14,932 bases of DNA from a virus (taxonomy: Duplodnaviria > Heunggongvirae > Uroviricota > Caudoviricetes): the IMG/VR virus record IMGVR_UViG_2660238190_000004, positions 1 through 14,932 of that record. One strand, written 5' to 3'. The position numbers and the translations under genes were made by a program. The stretch's first letter is position 1. Each line of letters opens with the position of its first letter. Positions 9,381 to 10,059 of this stretch are shown here, in pieces. Below the pieces are notes generated by a model, which made no database searches, had not been told where the DNA came from, and saw nothing but the letters and a program-made list of their open reading frames with translations.

Positions 9381-9590
9381 AGCCCCTCCGGAGAGGGGCT
9401 GGAGAGTGGCGCTATGTGCCATTGCATGGTGCCGGGTGCCTCCCGGTGAATTCAGTACCAGCACCTGAATCCGCGATTATCCCATATACCTACTCGCTGA
9501 TTACCCCTCCGCACAGGGGGATTCACCATGCGAAATTTTTTAACAAACTTCCCGCCGGCCAGACAATAATCGCCAGCCTGAATTATGAGC
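9381..9590. repeat. structured repeat element copy A (headed by a perfect 8-bp-stem hairpin)
   Basis: Begins with the palindrome 'agcccctccggagaggggct'. Shares conserved blocks with copy B: 'gcatggtgcc', 'gcctcccggt', 'aattcag', 'gggggattcaccatgcga', 'aatttttaacaaa', 'gccagacaat'. Confidence 0.7.
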
Positions 9591-9843
9591 AACGTGGCAT
9601 TTTACGGGAAAACTGTTTTCTGCAGTAAAAAGGCCCGCCGGAGCGAGCCTGGAAGGATAGCGGTCATGTGATGCCGGTTTCCCGGTAACTCAGCATCGGT
9701 ATCTGAGTCAACGTTTTCTCTACTGGGTCATTTCCGATACGTTCCGCCTTCCGGCAGACTTTCATCACGTCAGAAAATATAGCACCCTGAGTAACAGGAC
9801 AGTACTCAGAATTCAGGAAACTGTGACACATCCTGCACAGAAA

Positions 9844-10059
9844 AGCCCCTCCGGAGAGGGGCTGAAGTATAGCCTAATTTCTGTCTGTCGCATGGTGCCA
9901 GGGGCCTCCCGGTAAATTCAGCCTGTCTACTGAATTTGCATGTTCTCTGGATCATACACTTTGCCAGATGCCCCGCCGCTGAGGGGGATTCACCATGCGA
10001 TGTAATTTTTAACAAATTCTCCGGCAGCCAGACAATCATCAAGCTGTGGAATTGTGAGG
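9844..10059. repeat. structured repeat element copy B
   Basis: Same hairpin head 'agcccctccggagaggggct' (9844-9863) and the same conserved blocks in the same order as copy A; roughly 70% identity by eye. On the minus strand the hairpin is followed by TTTTCTGTG. Confidence 0.7.

What the first reader, a model, noticed from the sequence alone, without database searches (positions are those of the whole stretch)
9381..10059. Two diverged copies of a 215-bp structured element with a perfect hairpin head at the position where Stx phages carry stx
Between the tRNA cluster and the NanS-p-like gene there is no toxin gene. Instead there are two direct repeats about 460 bp apart that share the identical 20-nt palindrome 'agcccctccggagaggggct' and several conserved blocks in the same order. 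Conservation in blocks rather than uniformly, with an internal GC inverted repeat in one block, points to a structured RNA or a protein-binding module rather than coding sequence; a short ORF starting at the conserved ATG is not conserved between copies. On the late (minus) strand each element ends in the hairpin plus a T-rich stretch, so each could be a small terminated transcript or a duplicated terminator module.
Basis: seen in the sequence. Interest (0 to 1): 0.6.

Follow-up and report, generated by a model that had tools for sequence, protein, structure and literature searches.

The report
Tandem prophage small-RNA genes (STnc100 family)
The two repeats are genes of a known prophage small-RNA family (STnc100/EcOnc05/EcOnc27, related to PasD), read on the minus strand, with an overlooked third, diverged copy between them, so the finding is real but mostly ordinary.

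Summary
Two about 190-nt direct repeats share an identical 20-nt hairpin. Both are strong matches to Rfam RF02076 (STnc100) on the minus (late) strand: 132.5 and 138 bits against a gathering score of 47.

From P1 through the terminator stem, unit A differs by one base from EcOnc05 of E. coli O157 Sakai prophage Sp4. EcOnc05 is an Hfq-crosslinked RNA detected by Northern blot, and its published probe matches the window 35/35. The same family lies 75 nt downstream of stx2B in Stx2 phages (EcOnc27/sRNA103) and is related to PasD1/PasD2 of EPEC.

It scores below the Rfam threshold (30 bits). It keeps every helix through compensatory changes and has its own extended -10 box and terminator.

The locus is therefore a three-gene tandem array: a conserved five-helix fold, a variable single-stranded linker at the position of the PasD seed, and a C(UCCG)G-loop terminator hairpin. 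Covariation across Enterobacterales is very strong. Same-strand arrays of 2-5 units are common.

Most likely function: independently transcribed, Hfq-associated, trans-acting sRNAs that also act as terminators in the late operon. The family is already known. Unit M and the array layout are a small increment.

The parts
9835..10001 (-). Unit B. STnc100-family sRNA body: P1 5' strand 9998-9991, P1 3' strand 9897-9890, variable linker 9889-9864, terminator hairpin 9863-9844, U-tract 9843-9840.
   Evidence: Rfam RF02076 138 bits over 9835-10028. Own model R1 142.3 bits over 9835-10001. Terminator scan.
10006..10058 (-). Unit B upstream region. Conserved box CTCACAATTC at 10058-10049. Promoter-like TTGTCT at 10035-10030, an 18-nt spacer, then extended -10 TGtTAAAAA at 10014-10006.
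   Evidence: Read. The position matches the PasD promoter and its mapped 5' end. Promoter-like sites are enriched at this position across genera. Promoter function is inferred, not shown.
9622..9773 (-). Unit M, the diverged middle paralogue. P1 5' strand 9770-9763, P1 3' strand 9673-9666, linker 9665-9651, terminator hairpin 9650-9631, U-tract 9630-9626.
   Evidence: Rfam 30 bits, E=3e-4, below the gathering score. R1 42.7 bits, E about 9e-12. All helices are kept through compensatory changes. Terminator scan.
9776..9784 (-). Unit M extended -10 box TGcTATATT, ending 5 nt upstream of P1.
   Evidence: Read. Conserved in the second M allele. Function is inferred.
9372..9534 (-). Unit A (EcOnc05-type). 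P1 5' strand 9531-9524, P1 3' strand 9431-9424, linker 9423-9401, terminator hairpin 9400-9381, weak U-tract 9379-9372.
   Evidence: Rfam 132.5 bits over 9371-9559. R1 159.9 bits. One mismatch to the Sakai Sp4 EcOnc05 locus from P1 to the terminator stem. The published Northern probe matches 9468-9502 at 35/35.
9537..9589 (-). Unit A upstream region. Conserved box CTCATAATTC at 9589-9580. Promoter-like TTGTCT at 9566-9561, an 18-nt spacer, then TGtTAAAAA at 9545-9537.
   Evidence: Read; alignments.
10117..10233 (-). DUF3927 small ORF immediately upstream of the array. The same gene precedes PasD1 and PasD2 in EPEC.
   Evidence: Pfam PF13064, E=5.8e-11. RefSeq annotation. Synteny in L002 and L003.

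Best explanation
The region is a tandem array of three paralogous small-RNA genes of the STnc100 family on the minus (late) strand, in the order B, M, A. The family is also known as EcOnc05/06/27 and sRNA103, and is related to PasD.

Each unit encodes an RNA of about 150-165 nt, or about 200-220 nt if transcription starts further upstream. The RNA has three parts:
1. A 5' domain in which an 8-bp helix P1 closes a junction of hairpins P2, P3 (variable), P4 and P5.
2. A 15-26-nt single-stranded linker that differs between the three units.
3. An intrinsic terminator with a C(UCCG)G tetraloop hairpin and a U-tract.

By homology with PasD and EcOnc27, the 3' part (linker plus terminator) binds Hfq, and the linker is the seed that pairs with mRNAs or other sRNAs in trans. 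The structured 5' domain, which begins at or near the first transcribed base, is inferred to stabilise the RNA. Three units with three different linkers would give the lysogen three regulators.

As a side effect, the three terminators in series block non-antiterminated transcription from reaching the esterase and lysis genes. Q-modified polymerase reads through them after induction.

Shown here: family membership, fold, covariation, terminators, array layout and synteny. Taken from the literature for near-identical or related RNAs: expression, Hfq binding, and the 5' end of PasD. Inferred: the promoters of these three units, the seed role of the linkers, the targets, and the stabilising role of the 5' domain.
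For: - Rfam RF02076 on the minus strand: 138 and 132.5 bits against a gathering score of 47.
- RNAalifold on 20 phage units recovers P1, P2, P4, P5 and the terminator.
- Model R1 finds 142 units in Enterobacterales genomes. 96.3% of cells are paired, against 39-50% when partners are slid, and 28 of 34 pairs show compensatory change.
- The window units aligned with M2, PasD1/2, Sp4 and Sp5: 99.4% paired, 16 pairs compensatory.
- Three minus-strand terminator-like sites against 1.6 expected for the whole region.
- Unit A is EcOnc05: Hfq CRAC peak, Northern about 222 nt (PMC4104026).
- The Sp5 homologue EcOnc27/sRNA103 lies 75 nt after stx2B with convergent AsxR (PMC7873438, PMC12711010).
- PasD1/2 were validated by Northern blot and RIL-seq. 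Their chimeras map to the 3' 50 nt, and their published 5' ends fall exactly on the G of GCAUGGUG (PMC8550237).
- The synteny Q - DUF3927 - sRNA - SASA esterase - holin is shared with PasD2.
- Sigma-70-like promoters are enriched directly upstream of P1 across genera: 44/125 score at least 8 of 12, against 13-20 in controls.
- The same linker allele occurs with different 5' domains, and the reverse, so the linker behaves as a swappable module.
Against: - No transcript data exist for this strain or for units B and M.
- The promoter hexamers of A and B are weak (TTGTCT / TAAAAA) and fail the strict promoter scan.
- Northern sizes for EcOnc05 (about 222 nt) and EcOnc27 (about 235/247 nt) exceed the P1-to-terminator length of about 160-175 nt. 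The 5' end of this subtype may therefore lie about 50-70 nt upstream, or arise by processing.
- The U-tracts of A (UUUAUAUU) and B (UUUCUGU) are short for a classical Hfq module.
- No target of any STnc100-type RNA has been shown to be direct. Only overexpression effects on fimZ and espA are reported (PMC7873438).
- The pattern here, a conserved scaffold with a variable 'seed', is the reverse of most Hfq sRNAs. The scaffold may have a function of its own that is not yet known.
Confidence: 0.8

Rival explanations
1. The units are not independent genes. They are 3'-UTR or read-through segments of upstream transcripts (DUF3927, tRNA or late mRNA), released by processing or simply ending at each terminator.
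For: Northern sizes of about 222 nt (EcOnc05) and about 235/247 nt (EcOnc27) exceed the P1-to-terminator length. A conserved CTCA(C/T)AATTC box lies about 50 nt upstream of P1 in A, B, Sp4 and Sp5. The promoters of A and B are weak. The DUF3927 ORF ends 119 nt before unit B.
Against: The published PasD 5' ends coincide with the start of P1, next to a TTGACT -35 box. EcOnc06 is about 177 nt. Canonical TTGACN-17-TAnnnT promoters abut P1 in many genera, although the upstream genes there are unrelated. Unit M has a good extended -10 box. This rival is not exclusive of the main explanation.
Confidence: 0.25
2. The repeats are purely cis-acting: a triple intrinsic-terminator insulator. It keeps moron and tRNA transcription out of the lysis cassette in the lysogen, and the RNA has no trans function.
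For: Three hairpin plus T-run sites in series on the late strand, upstream of the esterase, holin and lysozyme genes. The position downstream of Q and pR' means only antiterminated polymerase passes.
Against: A terminator needs only about 30 nt, yet about 130 nt of upstream multi-helix fold is conserved with compensatory changes from Pantoea to E. coli. The RNAs accumulate, crosslink to Hfq and form RIL-seq chimeras in EHEC and EPEC. Insulation is probably a by-product.
Confidence: 0.08
3. The blocks are conserved at the DNA level as recombination linkers between lambdoid modules, or as protein-binding sites, not as RNA.
For: Bodies, linkers and flanks are reassorted between prophages. The array abuts a truncated argO tRNA gene, which is a recombination scar. 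The terminator of unit M resembles the post-argO terminator of Sp4.
Against: Compensatory double substitutions preserve Watson-Crick pairing on one strand in 28 of 34 pairs. Slid controls fall to 39-50% paired. The UNCG-type tetraloop is present only on the minus-strand transcript. Recombination between these sequences probably occurs, but it does not explain their conservation.
Confidence: 0.04
4. The region encodes small proteins. Candidates are the RefSeq partial 'hypothetical protein' at 9416-9541 (+), or the ORFs 9806-10075 (-) and 9664-9831 (-).
For: ORFs of 55-89 aa exist. RefSeq annotates a partial pseudo-CDS over unit A.
Against: No Pfam hit for any of them. The ORFs are not conserved between the copies. 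The conserved ATG is one strand of helix P1 and is replaced in L005, L084a and unit M. Substitutions follow base-pairing, not codons.
Confidence: 0.02

Closest known systems
STnc100 (Rfam RF02076), the same as EcOnc27 / sRNA103 of Stx2 phage Sp5/933W
   Same: Same family by covariance model. Same fold, same strand relative to the late genes, and same slot between Q/tRNAs and the nanS-p esterase. Hfq-binding, with a terminator hairpin.
   Different: In Sp5 it is a single copy, 75 nt after stx2B, paired with the convergent anti-sRNA AsxR. Here there is no stx and no AsxR/AgvB partner, and there are three tandem units. The P3 region and the linker differ.
EcOnc05 of E. coli O157 Sakai prophage Sp4 (Tree et al. 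2014, PMC4104026)
   Same: Unit A is identical except for one base from P1 to the terminator stem. The Northern probe matches 35/35.
   Different: In Sp4 it is a single unit directly after the intact tRNA argO and its terminator, followed by the convergent EcOnc08/21. In the window it is the last unit of a three-unit array, followed by a convergent iraM-like gene. The upstream 60 nt differ.
PasD1 / PasD2 of EPEC E2348/69 (PMC8550237; bioRxiv 10.64898/2026.05.13.724894)
   Same: Same synteny (DUF3927 - sRNA - esterase/holin). Same P1 and P2 sequences and the same promoter position. The linker before the terminator is the mapped seed. Like unit M, they match STnc100 below the Rfam gathering score (41 and 38 bits).
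   Different: PasD lacks hairpin P5, has a longer linker with the seed CCUUGUGAG, and has a different terminator. None of the window units carries that seed.
AsxR / AgvB anti-sRNAs and the 'dyads' of convergent Hfq sRNAs in lambdoid prophages
   Same: Same moron region. The same design principle applies: a conserved structural part plus a short variable pairing part.
   Different: Those RNAs are 51-60 nt, lie on the opposite strand, and belong to other Rfam families (RF02703, RF02702). Nothing in the window matches them.

Membership tests
STnc100 (Rfam RF02076) | Covariance-model score at or above the curated gathering score (47 bits), full-length match | tested here: met
   Unit A 132.5 bits and unit B 138 bits, both covering model positions 1-206 on the minus strand.
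STnc100 (Rfam RF02076) | The same score criterion applied to the middle unit M | tested here: not met
   30 bits, E=3e-4, below 47. With a model built from E. coli phage units it scores 42.7 bits, E about 9e-12. It is a relative, comparable to PasD (35-41 bits), not a member by Rfam's own rule.
STnc100 (Rfam RF02076) | Conserved secondary structure: P1 closing P2, P4 and P5, plus a terminator hairpin | tested here: met
   RNAalifold consensus. 96.3% paired with 28/34 compensatory pairs across genera. 99.4% paired in the alignment that includes A, B and M. Single-sequence folds give z = -3.0, -2.6 and -1.9.
STnc100 (Rfam RF02076) | Prophage late-region context, between Q/tRNA/moron and the lysis genes | tested here: met
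   Q at 12128-12949, tRNAs at 10293-10454, esterase at 6893-8764, holin and lysozyme downstream. Same slot as in Sp4, Sp5 and EPEC PP2.
Hfq-dependent trans-acting sRNA | A discrete transcript that binds Hfq and pairs with targets through a seed | not testable with these tools
   Literature only. Hfq CRAC and Northern data exist for EcOnc05, 06 and 27. Northern and RIL-seq data exist for PasD. No data exist for this strain. No significant complementarity to genes in the window: the longest match is 8 nt, which I judged to be chance level (the script's shuffle control did not run).
PasD | The PasD seed (CCUUGUGAG) and BLAST-level similarity to PasD1/PasD2 | tested here: not met
   The alignment shows shared P1 and P2 only. 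The seed is absent from A, B and M, and P5 is present here but absent in PasD.
AsxR/AgvB anti-sRNA dyad | A convergent 51-60-nt anti-sRNA abutting the STnc100-type gene | tested here: not met
   No RF02702 or RF02703 match at E up to 1 in 8700-10500, whereas Sp5 gives AsxR at 88 bits. The plus strand has no T-run after the hairpins.
Intrinsic (Rho-independent) terminator | A GC-rich hairpin followed by a T-run on the transcribed strand | tested here: met
   Minus-strand sites at 9401-9380, 9650-9631 and 9863-9844. Nine sites in the region against 1.6 expected. Termination efficiency was not measured, and the tracts of A and B are short.

The most novel reading that the evidence does not exclude
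Unit M would be the founder of a third, so far unannotated subfamily alongside STnc100 and PasD. It is present in about 12% of complete E. coli genomes and, in all 20 triplet loci sampled, lies between two STnc100-type genes. Tandem arrays of this family would be a general way for temperate phages of Enterobacterales to carry several regulators built on one conserved scaffold with exchangeable seed cassettes. The highly conserved scaffold might itself bind a factor other than Hfq.
Probability: 0.35. Interest if true: 0.35.

Novelty: already known. Interest (0 to 1): 0.17.

Why it matters
The practical value is mostly in annotation. RefSeq leaves all three units unannotated and places a partial pseudo-CDS over unit A. 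Rfam's gathering threshold misses unit M and also PasD.

The result also shows that a prophage without stx keeps, and even triplicates, the sRNA module that flanks stx2 in Stx phages. Sequence variation in that module has been linked statistically to HUS outcome (PMC12711010).

The array layout, together with the reassortment of scaffolds and linkers, offers a tractable case for studying how horizontally acquired sRNAs diversify. It does not open a new kind of system.

Tried and rejected
- Convergent anti-sRNA partner (AsxR/AgvB): no Rfam match at E up to 1.
- PasA/PasC homologue between the esterase and holin genes: no BLAST hit in the window. Only a minus-strand terminator was found at 6810-6782.
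- Coding potential of the overlapping ORFs: no Pfam hits.
- Complementarity of the linkers to either strand of the window outside the array: for linkers A and B the longest perfect match was 8 nt, which I judged to be chance level. The script crashed before reporting linker M and before its shuffle control ran. No host-genome-wide target prediction was possible.
- The strict sigma-70 scan found no minus-strand promoter. It flagged only a mirror-image plus-strand motif inside units A and B. The promoter assignment therefore rests on homology with PasD and on the cross-genus enrichment.
- A tRNA-like reading of the cloverleaf-shaped 5' domain was considered and dropped. ARAGORN calls nothing there, and the loop sizes and sequences do not fit D or T arms.
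- Alignment A3 contained a typing error of mine in one row. It was discarded and rebuilt from coordinates as A4.
- Coordinates in Tree et al. 2014 refer to an older Sakai record. At Sp5 they are offset by about 137 nt from NC_002695.2. This was allowed for when mapping the Hfq peaks.

Full report
**Observation.** The 20-mer AGCCCCTCCGGAGAGGGGCT occurs exactly twice in the window, at 9381-9400 and 9844-9863. None of 200 shuffles gave a match, even with three mismatches allowed. It is a perfect 8-bp stem with a 4-nt loop. The sequences to the right of each copy align over about 240 columns at 81% identity, with conserved blocks in the same order. The repeat finder also showed a third, weaker copy of the hairpin block at 9628-9654.

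**Identity.** A scan of the window against Rfam gives two full-length matches to RF02076 (STnc100, 'Gammaproteobacterial sRNA') on the minus strand. They lie at 9835-10028 (138 bits) and 9371-9559 (132.5 bits), against a gathering score of 47. A more permissive scan adds a third match at 9624-9799 (30 bits, E=3e-4), which is below the threshold. On the minus strand all three units end in a GC-rich hairpin followed by a T-run, at 9401-9380, 9650-9631 and 9863-9844. Nine terminator-like sites were found in the region against 1.6 expected. The locus is therefore a head-to-tail array of three units. I call them B, M and A, in the direction of late transcription.

**Context.** The same 1-kb stretch is 100% identical in many complete E. 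coli chromosomes. 412 of 5426 genomes hold at least 80% of it. In strain DA33133 the order on the late strand is as follows:
- antiterminator Q, a hypothetical gene, and a DNA methyltransferase;
- tRNA-Ile(CAT) and tRNA-Arg(TCG);
- a DUF3927 small ORF;
- the array;
- an iraM-like gene on the opposite strand;
- a SASA (nanS-p type) esterase, then holin, lysozyme and Rz.

RefSeq annotates none of the three units. It places a partial pseudo-CDS over unit A.

**Published work on this family.**
- In Sakai prophage Sp5, the STnc100 match (207.7 bits) starts 75 nt after stx2B and abuts the convergent anti-sRNA AsxR. This RNA is EcOnc27, also called sRNA103. It is crosslinked to Hfq and detected by Northern blot (PMC4104026, PMC7873438, PMC12711010).
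- The supplementary table of Tree et al. lists EcOnc05 in prophage Sp4, with an Hfq peak and a Northern band of about 222 nt. Its probe matches window 9468-9502 at 35 of 35 bases, antisense to the minus-strand RNA.
- From P1 through the terminator stem, unit A differs from the Sp4 locus by a single base.
- PasD1 and PasD2 of EPEC E2348/69 were validated by Northern blot and RIL-seq (PMC8550237). A 2026 preprint concludes that they share an ancestor with STnc100 (10.64898/2026.05.13.724894). They score 38-41 bits against the Rfam model. They lie in the same slot, directly after a DUF3927 gene and, for PasD2, before the esterase.

**Structure.** I took 20 non-identical units from prophage contigs found with a P1/P2 anchor. 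RNAalifold predicts the following, with 9 of 34 pairs showing compensatory change:
- an 8-bp helix P1 that closes a junction;
- hairpin P2;
- a variable region P3;
- an 8-bp hairpin P4;
- a 5-bp hairpin P5, directly stacked on the 3' strand of P1;
- a single-stranded linker;
- the terminator.

A covariance model built from this alignment (R1) scores units A, B and M at 159.9, 142.3 and 42.7 bits. I then searched 100 loci from one-genome-per-species Enterobacterales, found with a P5 anchor. This gave 142 units in Escherichia, Shigella, Salmonella, Citrobacter, Enterobacter, Klebsiella, Raoultella, Kosakonia, Pantoea, Erwinia, Rahnella and other genera. On that alignment:
- 96.3% of cells form standard pairs, against 39-50% when partners are slid by one to three columns;
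- 28 of 34 pairs have changes on both sides;
- no shuffle reaches the observed values.

The alignment was fitted to the model, which favours the structure, but the margin over the slid controls is very large.

**Unit M.** M is not a decayed copy. Relative to units A and B:
- P1 changes G-C to A-U, A-U to G-C and G-C to A-U.
- P4 changes two pairs on both sides.
- The terminator changes two pairs on both sides.
- P2 and P5 are replaced by shorter but intact hairpins.

A second M allele, about 91% identical, repairs the single mismatch in P1. I aligned A, B, M, the second M allele, the two STnc100-type units that flank it in L007, PasD1/2, Sp4 and Sp5. In that alignment 99.4% of cells pair and 16 pairs are compensatory.

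M-type sequences occur in 673 of 5426 complete E. coli genomes, in two alleles, with no annotated feature beneath them in all but one of the 40 records listed. In all 20 triplet loci sampled, M lies between two STnc100-type units.

**Transcription start.** The published 5' ends of PasD1 and PasD2 fall exactly on the G of GCAUGGUG, the first base of P1. They are preceded by TTGACT, an 18-nt spacer and TAAAAA.
- Units A and B have TTGTCT, 18 nt and TGtTAAAAA at the same columns.
- Unit M has TGcTATATT ending 5 nt before P1, conserved in both alleles.
- Across genera, canonical -35/-10 pairs abut P1. 44 of 125 distinct upstream regions score at least 8 of 12 at that position, against 13-20 in shifted, reverse-strand or shuffled controls.
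- EcOnc06 (about 177 nt) and EcOnc13 (about 187 nt) fit a start at P1.
- EcOnc05 (about 222 nt) and EcOnc27 (about 235/247 nt) are 50-70 nt longer than the P1-to-terminator length. A conserved box, CTCA(C/T)AATTC, lies about 50 nt upstream of P1 in A, B, Sp4 and Sp5.

The 5' end of the E. coli STnc100 subtype is therefore unresolved. It could be a second start or a processing site.

**Mechanism.**
- Shown here: three structured RNA genes of a known family, each with a terminator, in the moron slot of a lambdoid prophage.
- From the literature on near-identical or related RNAs: they accumulate in lysogens, bind Hfq, and PasD chimeras map to the last 50 nt (linker plus terminator).
- Inferred: the linker is the pairing seed.

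The linker is the most variable part of the RNA. It differs between A (AAUGGCACAUAGCGCCACUCUCC), B (GACAGACAGAAAUUAGGCUAUACUUC) and M (GACCGCUAUCCUUCC). The same linker allele is found with different 5' domains, and the reverse. This indicates modular reassortment. The 5' domain starts base-paired at or near +1, which would be expected to protect the RNA from 5'-end-dependent decay. This is an inference.

On the transcript the terminator loop is C(UCCG)G, of the UNCG tetraloop class. On the other strand it is CGGA. This fits the strand assignment.

The three terminators in series should also stop non-antiterminated transcription before the esterase and lysis genes.

**Rival explanations.**
- A purely cis-acting terminator role does not explain about 130 nt of covarying fold upstream of each hairpin.
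- A DNA-level recombination-linker role does not explain strand-specific compensatory pairing. Recombination scars are nevertheless evident: the argO gene is truncated at about 10238, and the terminator of unit M resembles the post-argO terminator of Sp4.
- Small-protein coding is unsupported.
- A 3'-UTR or processing origin remains a live partial alternative because of the Northern sizes.

**Arrays.** Among 113 sites in the Enterobacterales sample, 20 are same-strand arrays of two to five units, with gaps of 13-390 nt. Some E. coli prophage contigs carry four in a row plus a fifth nearby (L084 and L100). Tandem organisation is thus a family trait. I found no explicit description of it in the papers read.

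**Verdict.** The element belongs to a curated Rfam family, and one copy is virtually identical to an experimentally detected EHEC sRNA. The increments are the overlooked middle paralogue, which falls below Rfam's threshold, and the recognition that arrays with reassorted linkers are common. Interest is low.

Noticed in passing
window 10238-10283 (-): A truncated tRNA-Arg(TCT) argO gene. The 5' acceptor strand, D arm and anticodon arm are identical to Sakai argO. Homology then stops at about 10238, 5 nt before the DUF3927 start codon. This looks like a recombination junction that replaced the 3' half of argO and whatever followed it.
   Followed up: partly
window 9010-9345 (+): An iraM-like anti-adaptor gene (NCBIfam NF007393, 162 bits against a cut-off of 121) lies in an AT-rich insert and is transcribed towards unit A. 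Its stop codon is 35 nt from the terminator hairpin of A. The imperfect hairpin at 9315-9348 may be its terminator, so read-through would be antisense to unit A.
   Followed up: partly
window 9540-9567 and 10009-10036 (+): The simple promoter scan flags the same plus-strand motif, TTAACA-16-GACAAT, inside units A and B. It is the mirror image of the minus-strand TTGTCT...TGTTAA elements. Whether it drives antisense transcription is unknown.
   Followed up: no
window 6782-6810 (-): A strong terminator-like hairpin (12 pairs, then TTTTTATT) lies between the esterase and the holin gene on the late strand. This is the slot where EPEC carries PasA on the opposite strand. No PasA homologue is present.
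   Followed up: partly
window 1377-1575 (-): A full-length match to Rfam IS009 (RF02111, 223.8 bits against a gathering score of 117) near the small terminase gene.
   Followed up: no
window 3118-4747: Two overlapping, convergent genes that RefSeq calls 'beta family protein' and 'sce7726 family protein' lie between the lysis cassette and the terminase genes. This may be a moron or defence-type insertion.
   Followed up: no
L084 4946-7943, L100 1367-4362; L227, L210, L174, L162: Larger arrays of the same family. There are four tandem units plus a fifth 1.7 kb upstream in two E. coli prophage contigs. There are three to five units in Pantoea genomes and on a Pantoea plasmid.
   Followed up: partly
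L245 3185-3209 versus window 9626-9654: The terminator that follows the intact argO in Sakai Sp4 (GGCTCGCTTTTGCGGGCCTTTTTTTT) is homologous to the terminator of unit M (GGCTCGCTCCGGCGGGCCTTTTT). This suggests exchange at terminators between tRNA and sRNA modules.
   Followed up: no
window 9416-9541 (+): RefSeq (PGAP) annotates a partial 'hypothetical protein' pseudogene over unit A, and similar pseudo-CDSs antisense to PasD1 and PasD2 in E2348/69. These are probably annotation artefacts caused by the unannotated sRNA genes.
   Followed up: partly
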